Source of the DNA: an uncultured Planctomycetaceae bacterium
GTDB lineage: Bacteria > Planctomycetota > Planctomycetia > Planctomycetales > Planctomycetaceae
Length of the DNA: 64,000 bases
Direction of reading: 5' to 3'
Assembly: GCA_964388415.1 (NCBI GenBank)
Contig: CAYMAO010000001.1
Span: 65,072 to 129,071 of the forward strand
Both the position numbers and the translations under genes were made by a program. The notes under the pieces were generated by a model that was not told the origin of the DNA, did no database searches, and saw only the letters and a program-made list of their open reading frames with translations. Positions 1,476-44,723 of the stretch are shown here, one piece after another. Position 1 is the stretch's first letter. Each line of letters begins with the position of its first letter.

Positions 1476-3218
1476 GTGCCGTATCTGAAAGTCATCAAAG
1501 GCGGGCTTCCGGGGCAGCTCATCGAGTTGCAGGGAGAGCGGACCATTTTCGGCCGGCATCCCGGCTGCCAAGTGATGCTGGACAACTCGGCGATCAGCCG
1601 GCATCACGCGCAGATTATCGAGAATCACGGAACGTACTTTCTGGAAGATTTGCGAAGCCGCAACGGAACGCACTTGAACGACGTCGCCGTCCGCGGCCGC
1701 ATGGAACTGCACGACGCCGACGAAATCAAGCTCTGCGATTTTGTCTTTCATTTTCTGCTGCGCGCGCCGGCCGGGCCAGCCCCCGAACCCACGCAGACAT
1801 TCGACCGTTCTTCCGGCGTCCTGGGCGGCTTTCGGGCCAGGGAAGCAACGGCGGTGCGATCGTCGTCGCCTCTGATCTCGTTGCCGAAGTCATCCCTGGA
1901 GGAACCGCAGCAGGGTTCGTCGATCATCACGTCGGTGGATGCGGGGTCGGTTCGGACGGTGCGCTACAACGTTCGCCCGGAAGTGAAATTGCGAGCCGTG
2001 CTGGAGATCAGCGCCGCGGTCGGGCGGCTGTTGAAACTGGACGACATGCTGCCGGTGATCTTGCAGTCGCTCTTCAAGATCTTTCCACAGGCGGACGCCG
2101 GTTTCGTGCTGCTGAAAGATCCGGCGACCGAGAAGCTTTCGGTTCGGTCCTCGTTGCAGCGGGCACAGCAGGAAGACGACGACGTTCCGGTCAGCATGAC
2201 CATCGTCAACATGGCGATGGACGGAAAACGTGCCGTGCTCAGCGCTGACGCCACGGGCGATTCGCGGTTCAAGACCAGCGAAAGCCTGGCGGACATGCGG
2301 ATCCACTCGGTGATGTGCGTGCCGATGGTCACGCAGACGAACGAGGCGCTGGGCGTGATTCAGATCAGCACGGGAGACATCGCTCAGCAATTCTCCGCGG
2401 ATGATCTCGATCTGCTGGCCAGCGTCGGAGCGCAGGCGTCGCTCGCCGTGGAAAACGCGAAACTGCACGAGTCGCTGGTGGCTCAGCGCGATCTGGATCG
2501 CGAGCTGGAATTCGCCACGCAAGTGCAGCTCGGCTTTCTGCCCAGCGAGCCGCCGCACGTGCCCGGTTACGAATTCGCCGATTATTATGAACCGGCCAAC
2601 CGCGTGGGAGGCGACTACTTCGATTACGTCCCGTTGCCAAACGGAAATGTCGCGGTGGCGGTCGGCGACGTGGCGGGCAAAGGCGTCCCCGCCGCACTGT
2701 TGATGGCCCGGCTTCATGCGTCGGCCCGGTATCATCTGCTGAGCGCGACCGGCCCCGCGGACGCCATGACCAGCCTCAACGCGGAGATCGCCACGAGCGG
2801 GCTGGGCTTCCGGTTCATCACGCTGGTCATGGCGGTCATCAACGTGAAGACGCATCAGATTCACTTCGCAAACGCCGGGCATCTGCCGCCGCTCATCCGC
2901 CGAGCCAGCGGCGTGGTCGAGGCCGTCGGCATGAAGGAATCAGGAATGCCGCTGGGACTGGGCGGCCCGCAGACATTCCGGGAGATCACCGTCGCCCTGG
3001 AGGCCGGCGAGGCGTGCGTGCTGTATACCGACGGCGTCACGGAAGCCATTGATGCGCAGCAGGAAATCTACGGTCGCATTCGATTGAATGACGCCATCCA
3101 GCGGGCCCCGGCATCGGCCAAGGAACTGGTCCAGTCGGTCGTGGCAGACGTCGAAAAGTTTTACGGCGACCTGCCGCAGCGCGACGACCTGTGCATCGTC
3201 GCCACGCGCCGGCTGTAG
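1476..3218 (+). CDS. FHA-GAF-PP2C (SpoIIE/RsbU-type) serine phosphatase
   Basis: FHA signature GRHPGCQVMLDNSAISRHHAQI...RSRNGTHLN. Central GAF-like region. C-terminal PP2C/SpoIIE motifs GGDYFDY and GDVAGKGVPAALLMA. Start placed at GTG 1476, preceded by GGGGTGG. The TTG 1311 N-extension looks non-protein-like. Confidence 0.8.
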   Translation: MPYLKVIKGGLPGQLIELQGERTIFGRHPGCQVMLDNSAISRHHAQIIENHGTYFLEDLRSRNGTHLNDVAVRGRMELHDADEIKLCDFVFHFLLRAPAGPAPEPTQTFDRSSGVLGGFRAREATAVRSSSPLISLPKSSLEEPQQGSSIITSVDAGSVRTVRYNVRPEVKLRAVLEISAAVGRLLKLDDMLPVILQSLFKIFPQADAGFVLLKDPATEKLSVRSSLQRAQQEDDDVPVSMTIVNMAMDGKRAVLSADATGDSRFKTSESLADMRIHSVMCVPMVTQTNEALGVIQISTGDIAQQFSADDLDLLASVGAQASLAVENAKLHESLVAQRDLDRELEFATQVQLGFLPSEPPHVPGYEFADYYEPANRVGGDYFDYVPLPNGNVAVAVGDVAGKGVPAALLMARLHASARYHLLSATGPADAMTSLNAEIATSGLGFRFITLVMAVINVKTHQIHFANAGHLPPLIRRASGVVEAVGMKESGMPLGLGGPQTFREITVALEAGEACVLYTDGVTEAIDAQQEIYGRIRLNDAIQRAPASAKELVQSVVADVEKFYGDLPQRDDLCIVATRRL

Positions 3219-3365
3219 TAAAGCCCGTGGCGTGTAAAGCCGATGGGGTCTCCTGGTCCCGCCGCTTCGATTTTGCAACCATTTTCCTTGTGGAATTTCG
3301 TGACCCCGGTCTCTATGATAGGAGAGCCTGCAATTGTGCCCGCCGAATCTCCTTCCTGACGAAAG

Positions 3366-4469
3366 ATGATGACTGTGAGCAACTTGGATCAACTCGTCGC
3401 CAAGGCCAAGGCCGATCTGGACGCCCACACCCGCGAAAATGTCCGCTGGCATTTCAGTCCGGAAACCGGCAGCCCGTATTGGCTGGAAAAGGCGAAATCA
3501 CTCAAGTTCGATCCGCTCAAAGACGTCAACTGTTTCGACGATCTGAAAAAATTCCCGCTCTTTGAAGACGATGAACTTCGCGGCGGACCGGTCCAGCGCT
3601 GGATTCCGAAAGGCCTCGCCGGCAAACCGACCTACGTCTTCGAAACTGGCGGCACGACCGGCATCCCCAAATCCCGCGTCGTCATCGAAGATCACTGGAT
3701 CGACTACGAACTCTTCAGCGAAACCCTCGACGACAAGCATTTCCCCAAGGGATCCAACTGGCTGATGCTCGGACCGTCCGGTCCGCGCCGCTTGCGGTTG
3801 GCCGTCGAACATCTGGCCCAGTTCCGCGGCGGCATCTGCTTCTGCGTCGACCTCGATCCCCGCTGGGTGATCAAGCTCATCAAGCAGGGCAAGATCAAGG
3901 AAGCGGAGGCGTATAAGGATCACGTCATCGACCAGACGATGACCATCCTCTCCGCCGGCCACGAGATCAAGTGCGCGTTCATGACGCCCAAGCTGCTCGA
4001 AGCGCTCGCCATGCGGCTGATCAAGGAAGGTTCCAGCATCGCCGAGACCGGCATCAAAGGCATCTTCGGCGGCGGGACGGAATTCTCCCCGCAGTGGTAC
4101 CGTTTCTGCTGCGAGGAACTCCTGGGCCCGGACGTCTTCATGACGCCGACTTACGGCAACACCCTGATGGGCCTGGCCTGCTCCAAGCCGTTCGACATCG
4201 CCGACAACTACAAGATCACCTACCATGGCCCGCAGCCGCGCGCCGTGATCGAAGTCGTGAAATTTGAGGACTACAACCAGCTCGTCGGCTACGGCGAAAC
4301 GGGCCGCGTCAAGCTGTACACCATGACCAAGGAACTCTTCATCCCCGGTTTCATGGAACGCGATGAAGGCGAACGCGAAAAGCCGCACGAGAAATACCCG
4401 TGGGACGGCATCTCCGGGACGCGGCCGTTCCATGTGTTCGCGAAGACGACGACGGTGGGAGTGTATTGA
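3366..4469 (+). CDS. acyl-protein synthetase / adenylate-forming enzyme (LuxE- or PaaK/F390-synthetase-like)
   Basis: ETGGTTGIPKS adenylation motif (compare LuxE TSSGTNGLKS, PaaK SSGTTGKPK). ~367 aa, typical LuxE length. Sits next to a LuxC-like reductase. Confidence 0.65.
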   Translation: MMTVSNLDQLVAKAKADLDAHTRENVRWHFSPETGSPYWLEKAKSLKFDPLKDVNCFDDLKKFPLFEDDELRGGPVQRWIPKGLAGKPTYVFETGGTTGIPKSRVVIEDHWIDYELFSETLDDKHFPKGSNWLMLGPSGPRRLRLAVEHLAQFRGGICFCVDLDPRWVIKLIKQGKIKEAEAYKDHVIDQTMTILSAGHEIKCAFMTPKLLEALAMRLIKEGSSIAETGIKGIFGGGTEFSPQWYRFCCEELLGPDVFMTPTYGNTLMGLACSKPFDIADNYKITYHGPQPRAVIEVVKFEDYNQLVGYGETGRVKLYTMTKELFIPGFMERDEGEREKPHEKYPWDGISGTRPFHVFAKTTTVGVY

Positions 4470-4524
4470 AGGGGGGATAGCGGAAGAGAATTAGAGTGGG
4501 TGGAAATGATAGCGAGGTCGCGAA

Positions 4525-5088
4525 ATGACCATTGATGAATTCATCGCCAGCCCGCTGAGTGGTGATTGCAGCCTGCTCAAGCGACTCTATGACTTTGAAT
4601 ACCAAGCACTTGCAAACAAGCTGGGCTGTGTTCTCTCATTATTGGACATAGAGTCATATGAGGGAACGGCCTTGTGCAATCCAGCACTAACGCCAATTAA
4701 CTCCGTGACCTTTGCAACTACTGGGGGTGATGACGTTCATTTCGGACTAGTTGCAATCGAGCGGAAATATAGCGATTTATCGCCGATCGTAATGACAGTT
4801 CCCATGGCGGGCGACAACCCGAAAGAGACGAATTTCGTCGTGGGCGAGTCTTTACATGAATTTCTAAGGCTTGGCTGCGTACACGACTTTTTTGACCTGG
4901 AAAAGCTCGCATACTCATGGAGAACTGATTTATTTGGTCAGTATAAAAAAACACCTGCTCTGATTGATGAGCCAATCTACGTAAGATTTCGAAAAGAATT
5001 TGAACTGAAGCCATGGATTGAGCTGGAGTCGAGGTTTCAAGAACTCCAAAACAAATACTGGCCGCTATTGCGATTTCGGCGCGGATAA
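4525..5088 (+). CDS. hypothetical protein, low-GC orphan ORF
   Basis: ATG with GAGGT RBS 8 nt upstream. Visibly AT-richer than both flanking genes. No motif recognised. Soluble, acidic and aromatic-rich. Confidence 0.5.
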   Translation: MTIDEFIASPLSGDCSLLKRLYDFEYQALANKLGCVLSLLDIESYEGTALCNPALTPINSVTFATTGGDDVHFGLVAIERKYSDLSPIVMTVPMAGDNPKETNFVVGESLHEFLRLGCVHDFFDLEKLAYSWRTDLFGQYKKTPALIDEPIYVRFRKEFELKPWIELESRFQELQNKYWPLLRFRRG

Positions 5089-5143
5089 CTACCTCGCAAT
5101 TTTCTAAGCGAACTGTCTACACCTCTAACCCTCTGGATCTCTC

Positions 5144-6580
5144 ATGATCGAACTTCCCGTCCTCCGCTGGGGCAAACCGTACGAAAGTATGGAAAAGGCC
5201 GACGTCGTCCATTTTGAAACGGGCGAAGTCCTTGCCAAGGTCCATCAAGCCACCGGGTCGATGCTCGGCATGGACATGCGCCATGCCAAGAAGGCCCGAG
5301 ACGCCTTGCGGCAGCTTTCGATCGATCAGTTGATCGCGATGACAGCCAAGGCCGCCGACCTGTATTTGAACCAGACGCTGCCGCTCGGGACCGGCACGCA
5401 GTCCCCTGCCGAATTCTGCCGCATGCAGTCCGCGACCACCGGACTTCCAGAGCACATGTGCGCCGGCAACATGAAGAAGAATTACTTCGTGCTGACCCAC
5501 ATGCGCGACGTGCTGGAATCCCTCACCCGCGGGCTGCCGCTCGACATCTTCACCAAGGGCTTCGGTCAGGAAGCTCGCGGCGTGATGCTCAGCTACCAGG
5601 CGAATACGTCCGTCCTGGGCATGGTGCTCCCGTCCAACAGTCCGGGCGTCCATACGCTGTGGATGCCCGTCATCCCCTTGCAGATCGGCCTGGTCCTCAA
5701 GCCTGGCCCGCAGGAACCCTGGACCCCGTACCGCATGGCCGAAGCCTTCTTTCAGGCAGGCGTCCCTCGGGAAGCCATCTGCCTGTATCCCGGCGGACCG
5801 GACGTCGGCGCCGCCGTCATTGAACATTGCCCGCGGACCATGATCTTCGGCGGCACCGCCACCGTGGAACGCTACCACGGCGATCCCCGTGTCCAGGCTC
5901 ACGGCCCCGGCTTCAGCAAGTTGCTGCTCGGCGACGACGTCGTCGACAACTGGCCCGAATACCTCGACCTGATGTTCGACAGCATCGTGATGAACTCCGG
6001 CCGCGGCTGCATCAACTGCTCGGGCATCTGGGCGTCGCGTCATACGGAGGAGATCGCCGATGCGCTCGCCAAGCGGATGGGGCCGATTGCGCCGCTGCCC
6101 ATGACCGACCCGAAGGCCCAACTCGCTGCGTTCACGGTGCCGGGCCAGGCCGAGGCGATCAACAACCAGATCGATGAAGGCTGCAAAGCGTCCGGCGTGA
6201 CCGAAGTGACGGCGAAATATCGCGACGGTTCCCGCTGGGTGAAAAACGAACGCTGCGATTATTTGCGGCCGACGCTGATCCACTGCAACGCGCCGGGTTC
6301 GGACATGTCCAAGGCGGAATACATGTTCCCGTTCGCCTCGGTCGTGAAATGTCCGCAGGCCGACATGCTCAAGAAAATCGGCCAGACGCTGGTCTGCTCG
6401 GCGATCACCAAGGACGAGAAATGGTCGCAGGAACTGCTCGATGCGACGCACATCGACCGGCTGAACATCGGCCCCTTGAAAACGATCGCCCTCAACTGGC
6501 TGCAGCCGCACGAAGGGAACATCATTGACTTCCTGTTCCGCAACCGCGCGTTCCAGAACAGCCCGCCGCCGCCGCATTAA
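5144..6580 (+). CDS. LuxC-like long-chain acyl-CoA reductase (aldehyde dehydrogenase superfamily)
   Basis: Aligns by eye to V. harveyi LuxC: NSPGVHTL...KPGPQ; IFGGTATVERYHGD vs VAWGGPDAINWAVEH; catalytic-Cys region SGRGCINCSGIW vs DQRACFSAQNIY. 478 aa. Confidence 0.65.
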   Translation: MIELPVLRWGKPYESMEKADVVHFETGEVLAKVHQATGSMLGMDMRHAKKARDALRQLSIDQLIAMTAKAADLYLNQTLPLGTGTQSPAEFCRMQSATTGLPEHMCAGNMKKNYFVLTHMRDVLESLTRGLPLDIFTKGFGQEARGVMLSYQANTSVLGMVLPSNSPGVHTLWMPVIPLQIGLVLKPGPQEPWTPYRMAEAFFQAGVPREAICLYPGGPDVGAAVIEHCPRTMIFGGTATVERYHGDPRVQAHGPGFSKLLLGDDVVDNWPEYLDLMFDSIVMNSGRGCINCSGIWASRHTEEIADALAKRMGPIAPLPMTDPKAQLAAFTVPGQAEAINNQIDEGCKASGVTEVTAKYRDGSRWVKNERCDYLRPTLIHCNAPGSDMSKAEYMFPFASVVKCPQADMLKKIGQTLVCSAITKDEKWSQELLDATHIDRLNIGPLKTIALNWLQPHEGNIIDFLFRNRAFQNSPPPPH

Positions 6581-13364: not shown

Positions 13365-13481
13365 TAGTATCGGCTCGGTGGTGAACCGACAGCGAGCGTG
13401 CCGGACGGCTCGCAGGCTCAGCGGAAATGGCTCAAGGCCACGTTCAACATCGTATCTATTTACTATAAAAGGGGTTGTGAG

Positions 13482-14879
13482 ATGGGTCGGCTATTCGGGA
13501 TTCTGCTCGCGGTGATTTTTGCAACCTGTTTTTCAGAAACAACTTACGGAGATATTGAAGTCGCCAGCCCTCCGGCGGCCGCTCCTGCGTCCGTCCCGTT
13601 GGACAAAGCCGATATCACTTGGGTGCTTGTTTCTTCGGCATTGGTGCTCATGATGACGGCACCTGGTCTGGCGTTGTTTTATGGCGGGCTCGTTCGCAAA
13701 AAAAATATTCTGGGGGTGATGATGCAGTGCATGTTCCTCATGGGGATCATGTCGCTCGTCTGGGCGCTCTGGGGTTACAGCCTCGCCTTCAGCGGCGACG
13801 TGGGCGGGTACGGAGTGATTGGGGACCTCGGGTTTGTCGGCCTTCAAGGCGTGATGCCGACGGCTGCCGCGGCAGGAGAATATCCGAAAGATGATACCGC
13901 CACCATTCCACGCATGTTGCACATGATTTTCCAGATGATGTTCTTCATTATTACGCCGGGGCTGATTTGCGGCGCCTTTGCCGAGCGGATGAAATTCTCG
14001 GCGATGGTCGTCTTTTCGGTGCTTTGGGGAACGCTGATCTACTGTCCGGTCGCGCATTGGGTCTGGTCGGGCAGCGGCTGGTGTTCGGAATTCAACACGA
14101 ATGTCGCGTTCAAGATCAAGGCCATTGATTTTGCCGGCGGGACGGTGGTGCACATCACATCGGGGTTCTCGGCGCTGGTCTGTGCGCTGCTGTTGGGAAA
14201 GCGGCTGGGCTACGGTCAAGAGCCGATGCCGCCGCACAACTTGACATACACCTGTATCGGAGCGGCTCTGTTGTGGGTCGGTTGGTTCGGCTTCAACGGG
14301 GGCAGCCAATTGGCGTCAGACGTCCGCGCGGTGAACGCCTTCGTGTCGACGCACATGGCGGCAGCCGCCGGGCTGGTGGCGTGGGCCGGGATGGAATGGG
14401 TATTGCGCGGCAAGCCGAGCATCCTGGGGGCGTGTTCCGGCGCGGTCGCCGGGCTGGTCTGCATCACGCCCGCCTGCGGTTCGGTCACGCCGATGAACGG
14501 CATCCTCCTGGGCCTGGCGGCGGGCGTGGTCTGTTACTATGCGTGCACGAAACTCAAGAATCAGTTCAAGTATGATGACTCGCTGGACGCATTCGGCGTC
14601 CACGGCGTCGGCGGGACGCTGGGGGCCATTCTGACCGGCGTGTTCGCCTCCAAGGCGATCACCGGCCCGACCGGGTTGCACGGGTTGATCGAAGGAAACG
14701 CGAAGCAGTTCGTCGATCAGTTGATTGCCATCGGCGCGGCGGCTGCATTGGCCATCGTCGGCACGGTGATTCTGCTGAAAGTCATCGATGCCGTGATCGG
14801 GCTTCGCATCAGCCAGGCCGGCGAACTGCAGGGGCTGGACATCAATCAACATGGTGAAGAAGGCTATATCTTCCTATAA
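13482..14879 (+). CDS. amt: ammonium transporter (Amt family)
   Basis: Signal/TM N-terminus and Amt signature DFAGGTVVHI. ATG 13482 with AAAAGGGG RBS. Track start 13398 is GTG. Confidence 0.9.
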   Translation: MGRLFGILLAVIFATCFSETTYGDIEVASPPAAAPASVPLDKADITWVLVSSALVLMMTAPGLALFYGGLVRKKNILGVMMQCMFLMGIMSLVWALWGYSLAFSGDVGGYGVIGDLGFVGLQGVMPTAAAAGEYPKDDTATIPRMLHMIFQMMFFIITPGLICGAFAERMKFSAMVVFSVLWGTLIYCPVAHWVWSGSGWCSEFNTNVAFKIKAIDFAGGTVVHITSGFSALVCALLLGKRLGYGQEPMPPHNLTYTCIGAALLWVGWFGFNGGSQLASDVRAVNAFVSTHMAAAAGLVAWAGMEWVLRGKPSILGACSGAVAGLVCITPACGSVTPMNGILLGLAAGVVCYYACTKLKNQFKYDDSLDAFGVHGVGGTLGAILTGVFASKAITGPTGLHGLIEGNAKQFVDQLIAIGAAAALAIVGTVILLKVIDAVIGLRISQAGELQGLDINQHGEEGYIFL

Positions 14880-15701: not shown

Positions 15702-15852
15702 ACGTTCGGCGCGGGTCTCCTGACCCCGCCGACTTCTTGCCTGCGGTCTCCTGACCGCTGTTCGGAATCCTGTGACACGTAACATCGGCATTAAACAGGG
15801 AGCGGGAGTCCCAAGAAGAAAACGGCGGGGTCAGGAGACCCTCGCCGAACGT
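15702..15852. repeat. composite palindromic repeat cluster: two 29-nt inverted arms (28/29 match) plus an internal third unit GCGGTCTCCTGACCGC
   Basis: Arm1 ACGTTCGGCGCGGGTCTCCTGACCCCGCC at 15702-15730. Arm2 at 15824-15852 is its reverse complement with one mismatch. Each unit also contains a local hairpin GGGTC-TCCT-GACCC. Confidence 0.6.
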
Positions 15853-15950
15853 CGAAGCCAAATGCTCATGCCTTGCCTTTTCGTGCGTTCTAGTGTTTTT
15901 TGTGGCAGCCCTGCCTTGAATTGTCTCCGGATTTCCTCGGGCCATCGATC

Positions 15951-18638
15951 ATGAGCGGCCCTGCCGCCACGACACCACCGGGCGATTCCGCGCGTCGAAC
16001 GGAGAACCGCCGCCGGTTGGACGCACTCCGTCAGCAGGCTCGGCAGCGGTTTGAGCGCGGAGCCACGGGGCTGCAGGTTGGCGGGGGATTGTCGCTCGGC
16101 TTCGATGAACTCGTGCTGTTCCTGCTGGAAGACGCTTTGGAAACCTGTTCCGCCCCGGAGCAGGCCGTCTTGCGGGAGACCACGGCGGTGGCAGCCGTGG
16201 GCGGGTCCGGCCGAGGGGAACTGGCTCCGTATTCGGATGTTGACCTGCTGTTCCTGTTTCGACCGGAAGCGGAAACGCTGTTTGCCCGCATCGTCTCCCA
16301 GGTCGTTCGGGATGCCTGGGATTCTGGGCTGAAACTCGGCCACAGCGTGCGAACCGTCCGCGATGCAGTCCAGGCGGCCAGGCAAGACATTCAGTTCGCG
16401 ACCGCGCTGACCGATCTGCGGCCGTTGTGGGGATCGGCGTCGCTGACGGCTGAACTGGGCCGCCGATTTCGCAGGGGCGTCTTGCAGGGTCGGGTCGGTC
16501 CCTTTCAGGCCGAATGCGTGGAGGCCCGTGAAAAAGAACGCCAGGAAGCCGGCGGCGCGGTGCTGCAACTGGAGCCGGACATCAAGCGCTCCTTCGGCGG
16601 GATGCGCGATCTGCATCTCATCCGCTGGATCGGCTTCGCGAACTACGGCGTGAGCGAGACCGATTCGCTCCGGCTCCGCGGCGTGCTCACCAAGGAGGAC
16701 GCCCGGAGGCTCTCGGTCGCCCATGATTATCTGCTGGCGCTGCGGATCAATCTCCATTTTCACGCCGGCAAGCCGCACGACGTCCTCACCCGGGATCATC
16801 AACTGCGCATCTCCCAGGAGCGGTCGATCACCGGGACAAAAGGGCAGCTTCCCGTCGAGCGGTTCATGCAGGATTATTTTCGGCACAGCCTGGCCGTCGC
16901 CGAAATCGCCGACCGGTTTGTCGCCCAGCATCAAAAGACGCCGTGGCTCAGACGGCTGTTCGATTTTGTGATGACGATTCGCATCGATGACATTTATCGC
17001 GTCGGGCCGAGGCAGGTCGATGTGCTGCGCCGCCAGCGCGCGGAGGTCACCGGTTCGCTGGAAGGGGCGCTGCAACTCTACCTGACGGCGGCCCGCTATC
17101 GCGTCGACCCGGCGCATTCCCTGCTGGAGATGATCCAGGAGCAGTCGCCGGCGTTCTCTCAGGCGCTCAGTCCGGAGGCTTCGTCCACGTTTCTACAGAT
17201 TCTCGCCACGCCGGGCCGGCTCGGCAAGGTGCTGCGGAGCATGTATCACACCGGCGTTTTGGAGACGGTCTTGCCGGCGTTCCGGCATGTGCGGTGCCTG
17301 CTGCAGTTCAATCAATATCACAGCTACACCGTGGACGAGCATACGCTGCGGACGATTGAAGTCCTCGAATCGTATGAGACCGATCCCGGGCCGATCGGGC
17401 AGGCGTACCGTGAGATCCGGCATCACGAAATCCTGCACCTGGCGCTGTTGCTCCACGACGCCGGCAAAGGGTTCGAGGAAGACCACTCGGAAATCGGCAA
17501 AAGACTGGCGGAAGAAGCCGCCGACCGGCTAAGGCTGACCGACGCCCGGCGCACGCTGCTGGTGTTCCTGGTGCACCGCCATTTGCTGATGGCCGAACTG
17601 GCACTCCGCCGCGATTCCACCGACCCGAACGTGTTGCTGAACTTCAGCCGCGAGGTCGGCAGTCCGGAAACCTTGAAGCTGCTCTTCGTGCTGACGGCGG
17701 CAGACATCAGTGCCGTCGGCCCCGGCGTCTGGACGTCGTGGAAATCGGAACTGCTGGTCAGCCTGTATGAACGGACGATGCAATGGCTGAGCGGCCAGAG
17801 CCATCTGTTGCAGGAGACGGCCCGTTTAGATGCGATCCGCCAGGACGTCGCGGCCAAATTGAAGACGACGCAGTCGCCCGACGAGACCTCGCGCAAGCTA
17901 GACTTGTTCCCGGCGCATTACTTGTTGTCCACCCCCCCGGAGCGCATTGCGGCCGATTTGCAGATGATCGCCGCACGGCAGCCGGGTGACATCTGCGTCG
18001 AAGGCCGTTATGATCCCGACACCGATACGGTCGCCTATCGGGTCATCACGCAGGAAGACGTCGTCCAAGGCTGCTTTCACAAATTGACCGGCGTCCTCAC
18101 GGCGCAAAGGATGGAAATTCTGTCCGCCGGCATCTGCACCAGCCAGGACGGCATCATCATCGACAGCTACCGGGTGGTAGATCACGATCACGCCGGGGAA
18201 GTGCCGGACTTTCGGATCGATGACGTGGCGGCGGCGATCCGCCGCGTGCTGACCGGCCAGGTCGCGGTGGAAACGATGTTGTCCTCGCGCGGAAGGTTCG
18301 GCCCCAGCCGTTTCCGCGGGCCGCTGTCCAACTTGCCGCTTCGGGTGGTGATCGACAACGACTGGTCCGACCGTTCCACGGTGATCGAAGTCTTCGCCCA
18401 TGATCGCCCGGGGCTGTTGTACCTGATCTCCCGGGCAATCTTTCAGCTTGAGTTGTCGGTGGCCCGCGCGCAGATTTCGACGCATTTCGACCAGGTCGTG
18501 GATGCGTTTTACGTGACCGATCTCCAGGGCCGAAAAATCGACGACGAACGCCGGCAAAAGGAAATTCACGATCAACTGGTCGAGGAAATCAGCCGCTTCG
18601 AACAAGCCGCCCAGTCGGAGACCCTCGCGACACGCTGA
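15951..18638 (+). CDS. glnD: [protein-PII] uridylyltransferase / uridylyl-removing enzyme
   Basis: Nucleotidyltransferase motif GGSGRGELAPYSDVDLLFL. HD domain (HTVDEHTL..., LLHDAGKG). Two C-terminal ACT-like domains. Start ATG 15951 (track TTG 15900); the start is uncertain. Confidence 0.85.
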   Translation: MSGPAATTPPGDSARRTENRRRLDALRQQARQRFERGATGLQVGGGLSLGFDELVLFLLEDALETCSAPEQAVLRETTAVAAVGGSGRGELAPYSDVDLLFLFRPEAETLFARIVSQVVRDAWDSGLKLGHSVRTVRDAVQAARQDIQFATALTDLRPLWGSASLTAELGRRFRRGVLQGRVGPFQAECVEAREKERQEAGGAVLQLEPDIKRSFGGMRDLHLIRWIGFANYGVSETDSLRLRGVLTKEDARRLSVAHDYLLALRINLHFHAGKPHDVLTRDHQLRISQERSITGTKGQLPVERFMQDYFRHSLAVAEIADRFVAQHQKTPWLRRLFDFVMTIRIDDIYRVGPRQVDVLRRQRAEVTGSLEGALQLYLTAARYRVDPAHSLLEMIQEQSPAFSQALSPEASSTFLQILATPGRLGKVLRSMYHTGVLETVLPAFRHVRCLLQFNQYHSYTVDEHTLRTIEVLESYETDPGPIGQAYREIRHHEILHLALLLHDAGKGFEEDHSEIGKRLAEEAADRLRLTDARRTLLVFLVHRHLLMAELALRRDSTDPNVLLNFSREVGSPETLKLLFVLTAADISAVGPGVWTSWKSELLVSLYERTMQWLSGQSHLLQETARLDAIRQDVAAKLKTTQSPDETSRKLDLFPAHYLLSTPPERIAADLQMIAARQPGDICVEGRYDPDTDTVAYRVITQEDVVQGCFHKLTGVLTAQRMEILSAGICTSQDGIIIDSYRVVDHDHAGEVPDFRIDDVAAAIRRVLTGQVAVETMLSSRGRFGPSRFRGPLSNLPLRVVIDNDWSDRSTVIEVFAHDRPGLLYLISRAIFQLELSVARAQISTHFDQVVDAFYVTDLQGRKIDDERRQKEIHDQLVEEISRFEQAAQSETLATR

Positions 18639-19547: not shown

Positions 19548-21890
19548 ATGACCCTGTCCACGGATGCCTGCTGCTCCCCGGAGCGGCTGCGGGAATTCGC
19601 GCACGGCGAAATTGCCGACGACGGGGAACTTGCGTTCATTGCCGAACACCTGGCGAATTGCCCGTCTTGCACGAAACGATTCGACGCCATCGAAGACTTG
19701 CCGATCGTCGCCCTGCTCAGAACGGCCATTGCCGATCGGACGCTCAGCGACGCGGGTGACGAACAGGCCCGGGCCTTCGGCGACTCGCCTCCGCCGCCGG
19801 CCCTGCTGCACCACCCCAAGTGGAAACCGCTGCGCCGCTTGGGCCAGGGCGGGATGGGCGTCGTCTATCTCGCCCGGCATCGCCATCTGAAAGAACTCGA
19901 CGGCGAATACCAGTTCCGTGCGCTGAAAATCGTGCAAAAATCCCTGGCGTCCGGCGAGAAATACAAGGAACGGTTCCTCAACGAACTCCGGGCCGTCATC
20001 GGGCTGCCGGAACACCCCCACATTGTGCGGGGCTTTGATGTCGATGTCGATTCGCTGGATTCGTTCCTGCTGCTCGTGATGGAGTACGTCCCCGGCGACG
20101 ACCTCGAACACTACGCCGCCGCGCAGCCGGGCGGACGGCTGCCTGTCGACATGGCGTGCGGCATGATCTTGCAGGCACTCTCCGGGTTGGATCACGCCCG
20201 AAAGCATGGCGTCGTCGCCCACCGCGACCTCAAGCCGGAAAATCTGATCCTCTCCGACACGGGCATCGTCAAAGTCGTCGACTTCGGGCTGGCCAAAATC
20301 CGCGTGACGGACGTCGACCCGACGCATCCCACTCAAAGCGGCCTGCAAGGCTGCGGCAGTCCGAAATACGCGGCCCCGGAACAGATGAACGACTTCGCCG
20401 CCGCCGACGGCCGTTCCGATCTCTACAGCCTGGGCTGCACGCTGTATCGCTTGCTGGCCGGCCACCCGCCGTTTGGCGTCCACATCGGTTGCAAAAGCGT
20501 GCTGGAACTCTGGCAGGCCCACCAGACTTTCCGGCCGGCGTCCCTCGTGCAGATCGTCCCCAGCGTGCCGGCGAAGTTGAGCGCGCTGGTCGACCGGCTC
20601 CTGCAGAAATCCCCCGCCGCGCGCTGCCAGTCGCTGATCGAGTTTGCCGCGGAACTCTTTCCGTTTGCGTCGCCGGAATCCCAGGTCCTGACGCTGGAGT
20701 GGATCCGCGAATCACGACCCGATTCCCCGGAATCCACCGGCCCCCCGACACGGAAATTGCCCGTACGCTGGAGAAGCGGAACGCCGTTCCTGCTCACCTT
20801 GTTGTTGATCCCCATCCTGCTGCTGATAATTTCCCTTGCCTTCAGAAACCCTGCGAAGTTGAATTCGGCAGGGGATCACGATCTCGCTTCGTCCCCTGAA
20901 GCAATGCCGGCGGCTGCAATTGCACCTTTTGATCGGCAGCAGGCCGAAGATTTTCAGAAGCAATGGGCCGAACATCTAGGCGTGCCGGTCGAATGGGAAA
21001 ATTCCCTTGGCATGAAGTTCCGTTTGATTCCGCCCGGCGATTTCTGGATGGGGAGCACAGATGACGAAATCAAAGCCGTCGTCGCTGAACTTCGCCGACT
21101 GAAACAACCGGGCGAAGACCGTTTCGTGGAATGGGTCCAGAGCGAAGCTCCGCAGCATCGGGTCATTTTGACGCACCCTTATTACCTTGCAGTCCATGAA
21201 CTGACGCAATCTGTGTATGCCAAGGTGAATGGCAACAATCCATCCCATCACTCGGCGACAGGAAATGGCCGGGAATCTGTCGCAGGTTTCGACACCGCGA
21301 AATTTCCGGTGGACTCAGTGACCTGGAACGAAGCGATTGCGTTCTGCAATCACCTGAGCGATCTCGATCAGTTAAGCCCCGCCTACGAGGCGACGTCGTC
21401 TAGTATTACCGTGCTCAAGGGGAACGGTTATCGACTTCCCACGGAAGCGGAATGGGAATTTGCCGCCCGCGCGGGGACAACCACGAAATTCTGGTGTGGA
21501 GATCGAGTTGCAGATTTAGTTGCTTCCGAATGGATCACAGATAACTCACGCAATCTCCCGCACCCGGTCGGCCAGTTGAAGCCCAATCCTTTTGGCCTGT
21601 ACGACATTCTGGGTAATCAGATGGAATGGGTATTTGACGCCTGGGATCCGGACTATTATGCCCGCTTTCGAGACCAGGCCGCGGTCGATCCGACCGGCCC
21701 CGCTCCCGCAAATGCGGCTCACATCTGGCGAGGCGGCGCCTGGGGCAACTATTCCTACGCGGCCCGACCGGCCATGCGGAACCACTCCAACGGGCCGAAC
21801 TTTGCCGGCGGCGGAATCGGTTTTCGCCTGGCGATCTCCGTCGAGGCCGTCCGGCAGCAACAGCGAACCGATTCTACGTCCCCCGAATAG
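19548..21890 (+). CDS. Ser/Thr protein kinase with N-terminal ZAS-like zinc-finger segment, one TM helix and C-terminal FGE-sulfatase (SUMF1-like) domain
   Basis: Kinase motifs HRDLKPENL, DFGLAK, GSPKYAAPEQ. N-terminal HLANCPSCTKRFD resembles the anti-sigma HxxxCxxC motif. TM helix PFLLTLLLIPILLLIISLAF. C-terminal FGE motifs WEFAARAG and GFRLA. Confidence 0.85.
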   Translation: MTLSTDACCSPERLREFAHGEIADDGELAFIAEHLANCPSCTKRFDAIEDLPIVALLRTAIADRTLSDAGDEQARAFGDSPPPPALLHHPKWKPLRRLGQGGMGVVYLARHRHLKELDGEYQFRALKIVQKSLASGEKYKERFLNELRAVIGLPEHPHIVRGFDVDVDSLDSFLLLVMEYVPGDDLEHYAAAQPGGRLPVDMACGMILQALSGLDHARKHGVVAHRDLKPENLILSDTGIVKVVDFGLAKIRVTDVDPTHPTQSGLQGCGSPKYAAPEQMNDFAAADGRSDLYSLGCTLYRLLAGHPPFGVHIGCKSVLELWQAHQTFRPASLVQIVPSVPAKLSALVDRLLQKSPAARCQSLIEFAAELFPFASPESQVLTLEWIRESRPDSPESTGPPTRKLPVRWRSGTPFLLTLLLIPILLLIISLAFRNPAKLNSAGDHDLASSPEAMPAAAIAPFDRQQAEDFQKQWAEHLGVPVEWENSLGMKFRLIPPGDFWMGSTDDEIKAVVAELRRLKQPGEDRFVEWVQSEAPQHRVILTHPYYLAVHELTQSVYAKVNGNNPSHHSATGNGRESVAGFDTAKFPVDSVTWNEAIAFCNHLSDLDQLSPAYEATSSSITVLKGNGYRLPTEAEWEFAARAGTTTKFWCGDRVADLVASEWITDNSRNLPHPVGQLKPNPFGLYDILGNQMEWVFDAWDPDYYARFRDQAAVDPTGPAPANAAHIWRGGAWGNYSYAARPAMRNHSNGPNFAGGGIGFRLAISVEAVRQQQRTDSTSPE

Positions 21891-22172: not shown

Positions 22173-22880
22173 ATGGGACGCGTACTGTTGACGGCGCTTG
22201 CATTGGCAGGCTTATGCCGTGACGCCAGCGCCGGCATTATGGTGGATTCAATCAATCCCAGTGCCTCACCGAAAGAAAATATCAATTATGACTCTTCCTG
22301 GATTGGTATCGGCTGGTACTACACACCCGGCCAGGACTATGAGTTGACCCGTATCGAGAGCTTGTTCAATCCGATTCCTCACGCATCATCTCCGCCGCAG
22401 AAGCCAATCGCAATCAAGTTGTTTGATGATCGCCCCGTAGAAGGCGGAGTGTTGTTGGCGGAGTCTGCATTTACGCTGAATGTTCGTAATGGCGGCTGGC
22501 AAGGCACCGACTTTCTTCCGTTTGAACTTACCGCCGGCCAGCGTTACTTCTTGGCTTTTGAAGGAATCGCACTTGTAGGAATAAACCTCTCAACTTGGGA
22601 GTTTGTGGGTGGATTGCCAACGCTTTCGGGTGGCGCGACGGAGAGTTTGGGGGCCTATTACAGAGACCTTAACTACGCCACGGAGGTCACCGACCAATTT
22701 CAAGTTGCAAGTCCGACTGGAAACGTGAGTGGCACGTCCCCGATTCTCAGATTTTTTGGAAACCTTCCTGATCCACCTCCTCCTCCCTCCGTCCCCGAAC
22801 CCGGCACGTTGACTTTGGCGGGCCTTGGCATTGTCGGCTTGCTCGGGGCGCGGTGGCGGAAGCGGCGGGCGGGGAATTGA
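22173..22880 (+). CDS. PEP-CTERM sorting-domain secreted protein
   Basis: Signal peptide MGRVLLTALALAGLC. C-terminal VPEPGTLTLAGLGIVGLLGARWRKRR is a PEP-CTERM anchor. GGAGGAGG RBS. GC content lower than neighbours. Confidence 0.8.
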   Translation: MGRVLLTALALAGLCRDASAGIMVDSINPSASPKENINYDSSWIGIGWYYTPGQDYELTRIESLFNPIPHASSPPQKPIAIKLFDDRPVEGGVLLAESAFTLNVRNGGWQGTDFLPFELTAGQRYFLAFEGIALVGINLSTWEFVGGLPTLSGGATESLGAYYRDLNYATEVTDQFQVASPTGNVSGTSPILRFFGNLPDPPPPPSVPEPGTLTLAGLGIVGLLGARWRKRRAGN

Positions 22881-22980
22881 CGGGAACAAAAATCATGGGG
22901 GCGCATCCGGGGACCGGTGGCGGTGTGCGAGTTTCGTGAGTGATCAGAAGCGTTCTGCTTATGCATTCCGGGCGGAAAAC

Positions 22981-23083
22981 GGGTAGTGGGTCAGTTTAAT
23001 AATGTAGGACACTTGCTCCGCAAGTGTGATTGGCACTTGCGGAGCAAGTGTCCTACATTGAAAGGCAAACTGACCCACTACCC
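22981..23083. repeat. ~103-bp nested inverted repeat: 17-bp outer arms plus 26-bp inner arms, each inner arm containing its own palindrome CACTTGC-N3-GCAAGTG
   Basis: GGGTAGTGGGTCAGTTT (22981-22997) pairs with AAACTGACCCACTACCC (23067-23083). AATGTAGGACACTTGCTCCGCAAGTG (23001-23026) pairs with 23034-23059. Central loop is 7 nt. Confidence 0.7.
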
Positions 23084-23418
23084 GGAAACGAGGGCAATCT
23101 TTCCCACTCCAGCCTGTTCCGTCGCTTGTTCAGACGACCAATCTGCGGTTGCGCCTCAAATCTACGGCCAAGCCAGGACTCGGTTCCGTTGCCCGGCGTG
23201 GTCTCGCCGCGTCAGCCGCATGGCCGACCTGTGCCGCCTGATCTCAGAGATCTTCGACGACGCCTCGCAGCGCGAAGCTGCGAAGGAGGGGCTGTCGGCG
23301 GACTTTCATCTGGACTCAGGGAATTGTGAAGGCTATCATTCGCCGCGCCGGAATATGCCGGTAAGCGATGCAGAGCTTGAGTTGTCGCGCATGAGCCCCA
23401 CTTCTAGGTTGAGATCTG

Positions 23419-24351
23419 ATGCAGCCGAATTTCTTCATCGTGGGGGCGCCGAAATGCGGGACGACCGCCATTTACTCCTATCTCCAGAGAAATCCCGCCG
23501 TTTTCGTGCCGAGGGCCGTCAAAGAGCCGCATCATTTCAGTCCGGAATTCTGGAGTGTCGATTCGATTATTTCCTCCCAAGCCTACGAGCGGCTGTTCGA
23601 GAGGGCGACGGCGCGGCATCGGGCCGTGGGCGAAGCCTCGACCGGCTATATTCTGTCCGACGTCGCGCTGGAGCGGATCCGCTCGTACAATGTGTCCGCG
23701 AAAATCATTCTGATGCTCCGCAACCCGGTCGAGATGGCCGAGTCGTTGTTCGAAGAGATGAAGTATCATTGGATGGAGCCGCTGAATACATTTGAAGCCG
23801 CGTGGGCCGCCCAGGAACGACGACTCTTGTCCGGTCCGCCGAAGGTCGCCACGGAAACGGATGGCCGCCTGCAATACAGCCGCTGTTGCAGCGTCGGTTC
23901 CTTGCACCAGAAGGCTCTGGGCGTCTTCCCGGCAGAGCAAGTCCACGTCATCTTGTTCGATGATTTCAAGGCCGGCCCTCGAGATGTGTACCTCCAATTA
24001 TTGCGTTTTCTGGAGGTTCCCGACGATGGCCGCGTGGACTTTCCGTCGGTCAATGCGCGTCGAGTCCACCGGTATCCGCAGCTCATGCGACTGATTATGA
24101 AACCTCCCGAACCGTTCTATTCACTCAAGAAGCGAATTCGGAACGCACTGGGGCTGCGGGACGCAGGGTGGGGATGGAAGCTCATTTCCCGATTCTCAAA
24201 AACGACCACCAAGCAACCATTGCGTCCCGAATTCGAGGCGGAGTTGCGACGACATTTCGCCCCCGAGGTGGAACGCCTGGAAGAACTGCTGGGACGTTCG
24301 CTCGCCGCCTGGAAGACAGCGGCTCCCGCAGCGCACCGCACCGCCGCCTGA
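23419..24351 (+). CDS. sulfotransferase family protein
   Basis: PAPS 5'-phosphosulfate-binding loop GAPKCGTT. 3'-phosphate-binding region LMLRNPVEMAES. Confidence 0.8.
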   Translation: MQPNFFIVGAPKCGTTAIYSYLQRNPAVFVPRAVKEPHHFSPEFWSVDSIISSQAYERLFERATARHRAVGEASTGYILSDVALERIRSYNVSAKIILMLRNPVEMAESLFEEMKYHWMEPLNTFEAAWAAQERRLLSGPPKVATETDGRLQYSRCCSVGSLHQKALGVFPAEQVHVILFDDFKAGPRDVYLQLLRFLEVPDDGRVDFPSVNARRVHRYPQLMRLIMKPPEPFYSLKKRIRNALGLRDAGWGWKLISRFSKTTTKQPLRPEFEAELRRHFAPEVERLEELLGRSLAAWKTAAPAAHRTAA

Positions 24352-33996: not shown

Positions 33997-34096
33997 ACCG
34001 ATAGGATGCGGGATGAGCGGGCCGGGATCAAGGATAATCCCAAAGCCCGGCGATGGCATCGCCGGGATCCCGCCGTCGCCGACGGCGGGCTTTCCC

Positions 34097-44641: not shown

Positions 44642-44723
44642 GGCCGCTTGGTGGAACTGGCAGACACGCAGGATTTAGGATCCTGTGCCGCAAGGCGTCG
44701 GGGTTCAAATCCCCGAGCGGCCA
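44642..44723 (+). tRNA. tRNA-Leu (anticodon TAG)
   Basis: Hand-folded. Acceptor GGCCGCT/AGCGGCC. U8. 3-bp D stem with GG in the loop. Anticodon stem CAGGA/TCCTG with loop TTTAGGA. Long variable arm (class II). T arm CGGGG-TTCAAAT-CCCCG. Discriminator A. CCA not encoded. Confidence 0.85.

What the first reader, a model, noticed from the sequence alone, without database searches (positions are those of the whole stretch)
22981..23083. Large nested hairpin (43 bp of stem) between the PEP-CTERM gene and the polysaccharide cluster
A 103-bp element has 17-bp outer arms and 26-bp inner arms around a 7-nt loop. Each inner arm also contains its own palindrome CACTTGC-N3-GCAAGTG, so two alternative foldings are possible: one long hairpin or two local hairpins. 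This is far larger than an intrinsic terminator and AT-richer than the genome. It lies ~100 nt after the PEP-CTERM stop and ~330 nt before the sulfotransferase start. Candidate roles are a MITE-like remnant, an attenuator with mutually exclusive structures controlling read-through into the glycan cluster, or paired operator sites for a dimeric regulator.
Basis: seen in the sequence. Interest (0 to 1): 0.5.

Follow-up and report, generated by a model that had tools for sequence, protein, structure and literature searches.

The report
Miniature transposon carrying a REP-like palindrome pair
The large nested hairpin is a 101-bp non-coding miniature transposon: its ends match a very widespread IS1-type insertion sequence and its core is an inverted pair of REP-like palindromes, so it is a piece of selfish DNA rather than a control element made for the neighbouring sugar-modification genes.

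Summary
Perfect 18-nt outer and 26-nt inner arms surround a 7-nt loop (RNA fold -87 kcal/mol, z = -14), and the element is AT-richer than the window (0.49 vs 0.61 GC).

- **Outer arms.** GGTAGTGGGTCAGTTT is the exact terminal inverted repeat of a family found in many phyla and in viral contigs. There it bounds elements of 32 bp to 4.8 kb, with 44 perfect 8-bp target-site duplications. 17 of 21 elements of 2 kb or more encode an IS1-family DDE transposase; none of 29 under 1 kb does.
- **Target-site duplication.** The window copy (22982-23082) is flanked by CGGAAAACG / CGGAAACG, with a chance frequency of about 2.5e-4.
- **Inner arms.** They are a head-to-head dimer of a GTAG-tagged palindrome (GTAG-GA-CACTTGC-TCC-GCAAGTG), the published REP format. 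The same ~59-nt dimer recurs at 10 or more other loci in related planctomycete metagenome contigs.
- **Closest analogue.** Coxiella QMITE2, which combines TIRs, 7-9-bp direct repeats and a GTAG REP core.
- **Regulatory readings.** The attenuator and operator ideas are not supported: the two-hairpin fold is far weaker, the element is repeated elsewhere, and a conserved promoter-like site lies downstream of it.

An incidental insulating or mRNA-stabilising effect is plausible but untested. Verdict: ordinary in kind, a new member of a known kind.

The parts
22973..22981 (.). Left copy of the target-site duplication, CGGAAAACG
   Evidence: It directly abuts the family-defined terminus GGTAGTG. It matches the right flank CGGAAACG except for one A in a homopolymer run. 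The empirical chance of such a 9/8 match at this spacing is about 1.2e-4 per orientation.
22982..22997 (+). Left terminal inverted repeat, GGTAGTGGGTCAGTTT (end motif GGnnnTG)
   Evidence: It is identical to the termini of more than 119 genome loci and more than 120 viral-contig loci. In the logo over 123 ends the flank outside is random, while the 3 positions inside remain conserved. These termini bound elements with 8-bp TSDs that encode an IS1-family transposase.
22998..23003 (.). Linker AATAAT; the AAT directly 5' of GTAG is conserved in nearly all copies of the dimer
   Evidence: AAT precedes GTAG at 21 of 22 dimer ends.
23004..23026 (+). REP-like unit 1: GTAG tail, GA dinucleotide, 7-bp stem CACTTGC, loop TCC, stem GCAAGTG
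   Evidence: It fits the published GTAG-REP format (PMC3733652). On its own it folds at -9.5 kcal/mol. The same unit is repeated in related metagenome contigs.
23027..23033 (.). 7-nt spacer / apical loop, TGATTGG
   Evidence: It varies between copies (TTTTTTG, TTTCATG, and longer in L131) while the stems stay constant.
23034..23056 (-). REP-like unit 2, the exact reverse complement of unit 1. The GTAG tails face outward, giving a head-to-head homodimer.
23057..23066 (.). Linker ATT + GAAAGGC (the 7-nt side of the internal loop)
23067..23082 (-). Right terminal inverted repeat (AAACTGACCCACTACC on the + strand)
   Evidence: It is the exact reverse complement of the left TIR.
23083..23090 (.). 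Right copy of the target-site duplication, CGGAAACG
22173..22880 (+). Upstream gene for a PEP-CTERM-domain protein (context only, not part of the element)
   Evidence: PF07589.
23311..23339 (+). Promoter-like site TGGACT-N17-TATCAT, downstream of the element and upstream of the sulfotransferase (context)
   Evidence: Found by the consensus scan. It is conserved as TGGACC-N17-TATCAT in L259, where the upstream gene is different. Function is inferred only.
23419..24351 (+). Sulfotransferase, first gene of the polysaccharide cluster (context)

Best explanation
The hairpin is a 101-bp non-autonomous transposable element (MITE) that inserted into the intergenic region of a planctomycete genome.

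Its two perfect 16-nt ends (GGTAGTGGGTCAGTTT, GGnnnTG type) are the binding and cleavage sites of an IS1-family DDE transposase supplied in trans. Staggered cutting of the target and repair produced the flanking duplication CGGAAA(A)CG.

The cargo between the ends is a head-to-head dimer of a GTAG-tagged REP-like palindrome. That dimer is itself a repeated sequence in related planctomycetes. This is why each inner arm is self-palindromic, and why the whole can fold either as one long stem-loop or as two small ones.

At this locus the element was not built as a regulator. Any effect would be a by-product of the very stable hairpin: blocking read-through from the PEP-CTERM gene, or protecting that transcript's 3' end.

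What is shown and what is inferred:
- Shown: the TIR identity, the TSDs across the family, the link to the transposase, the REP format, and the multi-copy status.
- Inferred: that transposition was by the IS1-type enzyme, how the REP dimer came to lie inside the TIRs, and any effect on expression.
For: - **Ends are true termini.** The outer arm equals the terminus of a huge family. In the logo of 123 ends, positions outside are random and the 3 positions just inside remain conserved (G 85%, A 63%, A 55%).
- **TSDs across the family.** Pairs of these ends bound elements of 32 bp to 4.8 kb. 44 pairs have perfect 8-bp TSDs, and some have 9-bp TSDs.
- **Link to a transposase.** 17 of 21 elements of 2 kb or more encode a protein that passes Pfam's IS1 transposase cut-off (35.5 and 32.4 bits against 24.1). 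None of 29 elements under 1 kb does. Relatives in public records are annotated 'IS1 family transposase'. A complete 3.37-kb element with exact TIRs and a TSD sits on a Mesorhizobium loti plasmid.
- **Family hallmarks.** The literature gives GGnnnTG ends and 8-9-bp direct repeats for IS1 (PMC10425158, PMC6807381).
- **Window copy.** It has perfect consensus TIRs and a 9/8-nt TSD whose chance frequency is about 2.5e-4.
- **Inner dimer.** It fits the GTAG REP format, and the paper states that head-to-head dimers fold separately or as one large stem-loop (PMC3733652). The ~59-nt dimer recurs at 10 or more further loci in related metagenome contigs, including 3 dimers within 13 kb of L132.
- **Presence/absence.** The window lacks the element at the site orthologous to the L129 copy.
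- **Recurrent cargo.** GT[AG]G-tagged hairpins are enriched in short elements of this TIR family: 6 of 27 against 0.42 expected, and head-to-head pairs 4 of 27 against 0.04 expected.
- **Host.** The nearest named relatives of GlnD are all Planctomycetota, a phylum in which GTAG REPs are documented.
Against: - The TSD is imperfect: one A differs in a homopolymer run.
- No empty site could be found for this exact locus, because synteny is lost in the nearest relatives.
- No IS1-like transposase gene and no second copy of the TIR lie in the 64-kb window. The rest of the genome could not be scanned, so an autonomous partner in this organism is unproven.
- In the related organism the REP dimer is better conserved than its TIR-like flanks. 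Only 5 of 20 flanks exceed the 99th percentile of controls. The dimer may therefore spread, or be kept, by a mechanism other than the IS1-type enzyme.
- No RAYT (Y1 transposase) gene was found in the DNA held, so calling the dimer a REP rests on form and copy number alone.
Confidence: 0.8

Rival explanations
1. It is a REPIN proper. On this view the inverted REP doublet arrived here through a REP-associated tyrosine (Y1/HUH) transposase acting on single-stranded DNA, and the outer arms are a hitch-hiking or target sequence, not functional transposon ends.
For: - The GTAG + palindrome format and head-to-head dimer organisation match REP/REPIN descriptions.
- In the related organism the dimer is far better conserved than its flanks. 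Several copies have no recognisable TIR (L126, L131, two copies in L132).
- A Y1-type IS is found nested inside one IS1-like element (L038), so such transposons do land in these elements.
- Published cases exist of REP dimers embedded in longer palindromes.
Against: - Y1/HUH transposition makes no target-site duplication (from established knowledge of the IS200/IS605 family). This copy has an 8/9-nt duplication exactly at the TIR boundary.
- Its TIRs are a perfect match to the family consensus on both sides. That is not expected of a relic.
- No RAYT gene was found in any held DNA of this organism or its relative.
Confidence: 0.1
2. It is a transcription terminator or insulator that evolved in place, and the oversized hairpin merely resembles a mobile element. 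It would end the PEP-CTERM transcript, or act bidirectionally.
For: - It lies 101 nt downstream of a stop codon, between two genes on the same strand.
- The stem is extremely stable.
- On the - strand the stem is followed by TTTT.
- REPs and MITEs are reported to terminate or stabilise transcripts (PMC3733652, PMC10969869).
Against: - No U-tract follows the stem on the + strand, where the sequence is GGAAACGAGG. The terminator scan did not call it.
- The sequence is a repeat found at many unrelated loci, and its ends are transposon termini with a TSD.
- A terminator role can only be secondary to insertion.
Confidence: 0.05
3. It is an attenuator or riboswitch-like switch in which mutually exclusive folds (one long hairpin versus two local hairpins) control read-through into the glycan cluster.
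For: Both folds are geometrically possible.
Against: - The two local hairpins give about -9.5 kcal/mol each. A fold limited to local pairs gives -29. The long hairpin gives -87.2 and takes 44% of the ensemble as a single structure.
- There is no Rfam match apart from meaningless miRNA hits far below threshold.
- The same sequence occurs next to unrelated genes.
- A conserved promoter-like site for the cluster lies 230 nt downstream of the element.
Confidence: 0.03
4. The two 7-3-7 palindromes, 24 bp apart centre to centre, are paired operator sites for a dimeric DNA-binding regulator of the neighbouring genes.
For: There are two near-identical palindromes (CACTTGC-N3-GCAAGTG) (D1).
Against: - The same palindromes occur at 10 or more unrelated loci in a relative, always as part of the same repeat.
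- Analogous elements in other genomes keep the architecture but use unrelated sequences.
- No regulator gene adjoins the element.
Confidence: 0.02

Closest known systems
QMITE2 of Coxiella burnetii (Wachter et al. 2018, PMC5896051)
   Same: It is a small non-coding element with TIRs (17-29 bp), direct repeats mostly of 7-9 bp that are unique to each copy, and a GTAG REP core. It forms a very stable hairpin and lies mostly in 3' UTRs and intergenic regions. 'Small' versions that are essentially bare REPs coexist with full-size ones. That mirrors the copies with and without TIRs seen here.
   Different: QMITE2 is 150-190 bp long and belongs to a gammaproteobacterium. In the passages retrieved, no parent transposase is named. 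Its sequence could not be compared with this one. Here the TIRs are tied to an IS1-family transposase, and the REP is a tight head-to-head homodimer with a 7-nt spacer.
GTAG-tagged REPs and their head-to-head dimers / REPINs (Di Nocera et al. 2013, PMC3733652; Bertels & Rainey 2011, PMC3116915)
   Same: The unit has a GTAG tail, a GW dinucleotide as in GTAG-1/2, a 7-bp stem and a 3-nt loop. The dimer has GTAG outward and can fold as two hairpins or as one large stem-loop. It lies downstream of a coding region between co-oriented genes. It is multi-copy in relatives. Such repeats are documented in Planctomycetes and Verrucomicrobia. Some REP dimers are reported inside longer palindromes.
   Different: [quoted passage not shown] Association with a RAYT gene could not be tested. 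This copy is bounded by DDE-type TIRs and has a TSD, features that classical REPs and REPINs lack.
IS1-family insertion sequences and their MITE derivatives
   Same: The ends are GGnnnTG, the duplications are 8-9 bp, and the transposase is a DDE enzyme matching Pfam DDE_Tnp_IS1. The family splits into autonomous and non-autonomous sizes.
   Different: The transposase is a distant single-ORF relative, below NCBIfam's IS1 cut-off (52 bits against 100). The long elements are 2-4.8 kb and carry passenger genes: a small basic protein annotated 'histone H1', an HTH/ImmA-like protein and a hypothetical protein. From memory this resembles ISfinder's ISMhu11 subgroup, which I did not verify. GGnnnTG ends and 8-bp TSDs are also shared with IS6/IS26.
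Structured bacterial MITEs that affect neighbouring transcripts (Correia/NEMIS, ERIC, RUP, BOX)
   Same: They are small TIR-bounded elements that fold into robust hairpins in transcripts and can stabilise, destabilise or terminate them.
   Different: There is no sequence relationship, and no expression data exist for this element.

Membership tests
MITE derived from an IS1-family element | Terminal inverted repeats identical or near-identical to those of an autonomous element | tested here: met
   Both 16-nt ends equal the ends of transposase-encoding elements such as L017, L116 and the M. loti plasmid L258.
MITE derived from an IS1-family element | Target-site duplication of the family's length (8-9 bp) directly flanking the TIRs | tested here: met
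   The flanks are CGGAAAACG and CGGAAACG. They differ by a one-base indel in an A run. The chance frequency is about 2.5e-4. The duplication is imperfect, so this is met with a caveat.
MITE derived from an IS1-family element | Small size and no coding capacity | tested here: met
   The element is 101 bp. Gene callers on the source contigs place no gene there.
MITE derived from an IS1-family element | Family ends GGnnnTG and a DDE transposase of the IS1 family in the long members | tested here: met
   The end is GGTAGTG. Pfam PF03400 is hit above its cut-off. PGAP annotation reads 'IS1 family transposase'. The literature table confirms the hallmarks. NCBIfam's IS1 model is the best hit but falls below its cut-off.
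MITE derived from an IS1-family element | Multiple copies and an autonomous partner in the same genome | not testable with these tools
   Only 64 kb of the genome is available. It holds one copy and no transposase. Same-genome multi-copy status is seen for analogous elements in other MAGs (L100+L109, L048+L121, L023+L071).
MITE derived from an IS1-family element | Presence/absence polymorphism (empty site) | tested here: inconclusive
   No syntenic relative exists for this locus. For the related L129 copy, the window provides an orthologous site that lacks the element, but divergence blurs the boundaries.
GTAG-type REP / REPIN | Unpaired GTAG (or GTRG) tail next to a 5-13-bp stem with a short loop | tested here: met
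   The unit is GTAG-GA-CACTTGC-TCC-GCAAGTG, present on both strands. The criteria come from PMC3733652.
GTAG-type REP / REPIN | Inverted doublet (head-to-head dimer) able to form one large hairpin | tested here: met
   The GTAG tails face outward, the spacer is 7 nt, and the 26-nt arms are perfect.
GTAG-type REP / REPIN | High copy number within a genome | tested here: inconclusive
   There is one dimer in the 64-kb window. A related organism holds 10 or more dimers in about 119 kb of ascertainment-biased DNA, including 3 unselected extra dimers.
GTAG-type REP / REPIN | Cognate RAYT (Y1/HUH transposase) gene flanked by the same REPs | not testable with these tools
   None was found in the window or in loci L125-L137, using a motif scan and phmmer with from-memory Y1 queries.
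GTAG-type REP / REPIN | No target-site duplication and no DDE-type TIRs | tested here: not met
   This copy has both. It is therefore not filed as a plain REPIN, but as a MITE with a REP-like core.
Intrinsic (Rho-independent) terminator | GC-rich stem followed immediately by a U-tract on the transcribed strand | tested here: not met
   The + strand tail is GGAAACGAGG, and the scan did not call it. Only the - strand has TTTT.
Riboswitch / attenuator | Match to a known RNA family, or energetically competing alternative structures | tested here: not met
   Rfam gave no credible hit. The fold energies are -87 against about -19 to -29 kcal/mol.

The most novel reading that the evidence does not exclude
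The combination may not be accidental. Miniature elements bounded by this IS1-type TIR have repeatedly acquired unrelated GT[AG]G-tagged REP dimers, mostly in planctomycete and verrucomicrobial genomes (plus L097, Acidobacteriota). This points to a class of chimeric non-autonomous elements that two different transposition machineries could recognise: a DDE IS1-type enzyme at the ends and a Y1/RAYT-type enzyme at the core. Alternatively, the inner edge of the TIR palindrome may be a preferred landing site for Y1-mobilised REPs. Either reading would explain the unexplained 'REP dimers inside longer palindromes' of earlier surveys, and would link the REP and MITE worlds mechanistically.
Probability: 0.15. 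Interest if true: 0.6.

Novelty: new member of a known kind. Interest (0 to 1): 0.35.

Why it matters
**For this locus.** The result removes a tempting regulatory story. The hairpin is an inserted mobile element, so annotation of the glycan cluster should not assume a built-in attenuator. A hairpin of -87 kcal/mol between two co-oriented genes may still insulate them.

**More broadly.** The outer arm led to an apparently undescribed group of IS1-type elements:
- Their 16-19-nt termini are identical across many phyla and many viral contigs.
- Cargo ranges from nothing (32-bp TIR-TIR units) through REP dimers and a tRNA gene to multi-gene passengers.

This group is a useful marker for horizontal transfer. 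It is also a concrete system for asking how REPs and MITEs become fused.

Tried and rejected
- **Rfam.** Scans of the region and of the whole window gave only sub-threshold miRNA look-alikes and one tRNA.
- **Chance 17-mer matches.** About 70 are expected in 596 Gb x 2 strands, so I considered that the genome hits were noise. The logo rejected this: bases remain conserved beyond the pattern, and the outer boundary is sharp. So did the TSDs.
- **Empty site through the sulfotransferase.** Homologues P0002 (78%) and P0003 (62%) have a different upstream context.
- **Empty site through the PEP-CTERM gene.** Homologue P0122 (50%) is not syntenic.
- **Organism name.** The exact-sequence look-up returned no names. 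Taxonomy came instead from GlnD homologues.
- **Y1/RAYT genes.** A regex and phmmer with from-memory queries found none in the window or in the REP-bearing metagenome loci. The single hit, in L038, is a nested IS200-type IS with an in-frame stop, not a RAYT flanked by GTAG REPs. It gives only anecdotal support for a 'REPtron cargo' origin.
- **Literature.** A search for the terminus sequence found only an unrelated primer-like match. The 2024 MITE survey (PMC11602168) returned no IS1-family, GGTAG or planctomycete match and only one passing Acidobacteria mention.
- **Published REP families.** The 5 supplementary files of Di Nocera et al. held as text do not contain this stem sequence.
- **Promoter inside the element.** A promoter-like TTGGCA-N18-TACATT lies inside the element. 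It is only a 9/12 consensus match, and I did not pursue it.

Full report
**1. The observation**

The sequence at 22980-23084 is as described. An 18-nt outer inverted repeat (CGGGTAGTGGGTCAGTTT) and a 26-nt inner one (AATGTAGGACACTTGCTCCGCAAGTG) are both 100% complementary. They are separated by a 3 x 7-nt internal loop and closed by a 7-nt apical loop. Each inner arm contains its own palindrome, CACTTGC-N3-GCAAGTG.

As RNA the + strand folds at -87.2 kcal/mol. Dinucleotide shuffles give -34.5 +/- 3.7 (z = -14.2), and none of 200 does as well. The - strand gives -82.7 (z = -15.7). GC content is 0.49 against 0.61 for the window.

The element begins 101 nt after the PEP-CTERM stop codon and ends 336 nt before the sulfotransferase start. 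The same sequence occurs in three independent assemblies, so it is not an assembly artefact. Two k-mer-based contigs break inside the palindrome. Neither arm has another copy in the window with up to 3 mismatches.

**2. The outer arms are transposon ends**

A 17-mer is expected about 70 times by chance in that much DNA. These hits are nevertheless not chance:
- In a logo of 123 oriented ends, the bases outside the motif are random.
- The three bases after the motif are conserved: G 85%, A 63%, A 55%.
- The sharp outer boundary and the inward-extending conservation are the signature of an element terminus.

The hosts span Acidobacteriota, Planctomycetota, Actinomycetota, Pseudomonadota, Verrucomicrobiota, Chloroflexota, Gemmatimonadota and others.

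I took the terminus as GGTAGTG... and paired ends within loci. This gave 106 candidate pairs, of which 44 have perfect 8-bp target-site duplications. A few have 9-bp duplications. Element lengths run from 32 bp (two ends back to back) to 4.8 kb.

The long elements encode a protein of about 285 aa that passes Pfam's gathering threshold for the IS1 transposase domain (35.5 and 32.4 bits against 24.1). NCBIfam's IS1 model is its best hit, though below the cut-off. Homologues of 54-61% identity on plasmids are annotated 'IS1 family transposase'.

17 of 21 TIR+TSD-bounded elements of 2 kb or more encode this protein. None of 29 elements shorter than 1 kb does. A Mesorhizobium loti plasmid carries a complete 3,370-bp element with exact ends and the TSD CGCTGGTG. 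It holds a small basic protein annotated 'histone H1', a hypothetical protein, an HTH protein and the transposase. L017 has the same layout.

Published ISfinder-derived tables give IS1 the features DDE chemistry, GGnnnTG ends and 8-9-bp direct repeats (PMC10425158). GGnnnTG is also shared with IS6/IS26 (PMC6807381).

**3. The window copy**

With the family-defined boundary, the element is 22982-23082 (101 bp). Both ends match the consensus at 16 of 16 positions. The flanks are CGGAAAACG on the left and CGGAAACG on the right, the same 8/9-mer apart from one A in a homopolymer run.

In 200,000 random placements in the window, such a match occurred at a frequency of 1.0-1.4e-4 per orientation. 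This is the expected footprint of insertion by a DDE transposase.

No transposase gene of this type lies in the window. If the element is still mobile, it depends on an enzyme encoded elsewhere.

**4. The inner arms are a REP-type dimer**

Each inner arm reads GTAG-GA-CACTTGC-TCC-GCAAGTG. Di Nocera et al. (PMC3733652) define GTAG REPs by these features:
- an unpaired GTAG tail;
- in families GTAG-1/2, a 'GW' dinucleotide next to the tail;
- a stem of mostly 6-9 bp;
- a loop of often 2-3 nt.

[quoted passage not shown] They report such repeats in Planctomycetes and Verrucomicrobia, mostly downstream of coding regions between co-oriented or convergent genes. The window element meets all these formal criteria.

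A metagenome scan for GTAGGACACTTGCNNNGCAAGTG found 13 contigs, representing 8 distinct loci. A tolerant search within them showed further dimers of the variant unit GTAGAGCACTTGCTCCGCAAGTG. L132 has three dimers in 13 kb and L127 has two. An alignment shows the ~59-nt dimer nearly invariant while the flanks diverge.

These contigs come from an organism related to the window's. L129 carries orthologues of window 43419-44186 and 44235-44330 at 73-84% nucleotide identity. The L129 dimer sits between those two segments, whereas the window has no element there. That is a presence/absence difference, although divergence prevents base-level boundaries.

GlnD homologues place the window organism in Planctomycetota. 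All named relatives are Planctomycetaceae, Schlesneria or Planctomycetales, at 60% identity or less.

**5. How the two layers relate**

In the related organism, 'AAT' precedes GTAG at nearly every dimer end. Some copies keep recognisable but decayed TIRs. L129, for example, has TGTAGTGGTATAGTTTGAG ... CTGTACCACTACC. Nine of 20 flanks score at or above the 95th percentile of random controls for similarity to the TIR, and 5 of 20 at or above the 99th. The others show nothing.

This mirrors Coxiella QMITE2. There, full-size copies have TIRs, direct repeats mostly of 7-9 bp and a GTAG REP core, while 'small' copies are essentially bare REPs (PMC5896051).

Across the TIR family, short elements often carry long internal hairpins. 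GT[AG]G-tagged perfect hairpins occur in 6 of 27 distinct short elements, against 0.42 expected from size-matched random segments. Head-to-head pairs occur in 4 of 27, against 0.04 expected. Neither observed count was reached in 300 control sets.

The carriers are mostly planctomycetes and a verrucomicrobium: L109 Schlesneria, L068 Phycisphaerae, L083 Planctomycetota and L018 Opitutaceae. Their REP sequences are unrelated to one another, so the combination arose more than once.

How it arises is not established. One anecdote: an IS200-type Y1 element with its own flanking hairpins is nested inside the 4.1-kb L038 element. This shows that single-strand transposons do land in these elements.

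**6. Function at this locus**

Nothing indicates a dedicated regulatory device:
- The two-hairpin fold is worth about -19 kcal/mol (-29 for any fold limited to local pairs), against -87 for the long hairpin.
- No RNA family matches.
- The same sequence lies beside unrelated genes.
- The + strand has no U-tract after the stem.
- A promoter-like TGGACT-N17-TATCAT at 23311-23339 is conserved in the closest sulfotransferase relative, even though that relative has a different upstream gene. The cluster therefore probably has its own promoter downstream of the element. This last point is an inference.

By analogy with REPs and structured MITEs, the hairpin could impede read-through from the PEP-CTERM gene, or protect that mRNA's 3' end. 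This is untested.

**7. Verdict**

The finding is real. It is best explained as a MITE of an IS1-type family with a REP-like dimer as its core (confidence about 0.8).

It is a new member of known kinds rather than a new kind. The closest precedent is QMITE2. Earlier work had also noted REP dimers within longer palindromes without explaining them.

What remains open:
- whether the REP core is, or was, mobilised by a RAYT;
- whether an autonomous IS1-like partner exists in this genome;
- whether the hairpin has any effect on expression.

Noticed in passing
window 15702-15852: A second nested inverted repeat lies between the ammonium transporter (13398-14879) and glnD (15900-18638). It has 37-nt arms, 92% complementary, with a 77-nt spacer. 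Each arm holds the palindrome GGGTC-TCCT-GACCC, and a third copy of GGTCTCCTGACC lies in the spacer. The arms begin ACGTTCGGCG, which could be a CGTC-type REP dimer. Its sequence is unrelated to the target.
   Followed up: partly
window 34040-34093: Two adjacent 9-3-9 hairpins (CCCGGCGAT-GGC-ATCGCCGGG and CCCGCCGTC-GCC-GACGGCGGG) are 93-100% identical to sequences in L125, L130 and L132. They look like another REP-like repeat family shared with the related planctomycete.
   Followed up: partly
The long members share a cargo of a small basic protein (annotated 'histone H1' in M. loti), a hypothetical protein and an HTH/ImmA-like protein. I found no description of this terminus in the searched literature.
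   Followed up: partly
L049 657-688; L078 5582-5613; L040 6589-6623: Minimal elements of 32-35 bp consist only of two TIRs back to back, yet are flanked by 8-bp duplications (perfect in L049, one mismatch in L078 and L040). These may be the smallest possible derivatives of the family.
   Followed up: no
L158 6963-7162 (IMG/VR contig): A 200-bp TIR-bounded element with a perfect 8-bp TSD (GATCAAGG) carries a complete tRNA-Asp(GTC) gene as its only cargo.
   Followed up: partly
L038 3904-4484 (inside the element 1751-5859): An IS200-type Y1 transposase gene (Pfam Y1_Tnp, 84.9 bits, one in-frame stop) is flanked by two copies of CCCCGCGGCAAGCCGCGGGG. It is nested within a 4.1-kb IS1-type element that has a perfect TSD.
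   Followed up: partly
window 44235-44330 (- strand): A non-coding segment is 84% identical to L129 1103-1198. It contains GCTCCACCA followed by a hairpin (GGCGACTGG...CCAGTCGCC) and a T-run. It may be a conserved small RNA or a terminator. There was no Rfam hit at the gathering threshold, and it is not a tRNA; the only tRNA is Leu at 44642-44723.
   Followed up: no
window 23030-23059: A promoter-like TTGGCA-N18-TACATT lies inside the element and faces the sulfotransferase. The corresponding TTTGCA...TACATT is kept in most other copies of the dimer. It is a consensus match only.
   Followed up: no
L004, L005 (Logan contigs): Two independent unitig-style contigs end exactly inside the palindrome, at query positions 97-98 of the 146-nt probe. 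This illustrates how perfect inverted repeats break de Bruijn assemblies.
   Followed up: no
window 19548-21890: A Ser/Thr protein kinase is fused to an FGE-sulfatase-like domain directly upstream of the PEP-CTERM gene. A similar kinase neighbours the nearest PEP-CTERM homologue in L264, together with an ECF-type sigma factor.
   Followed up: no
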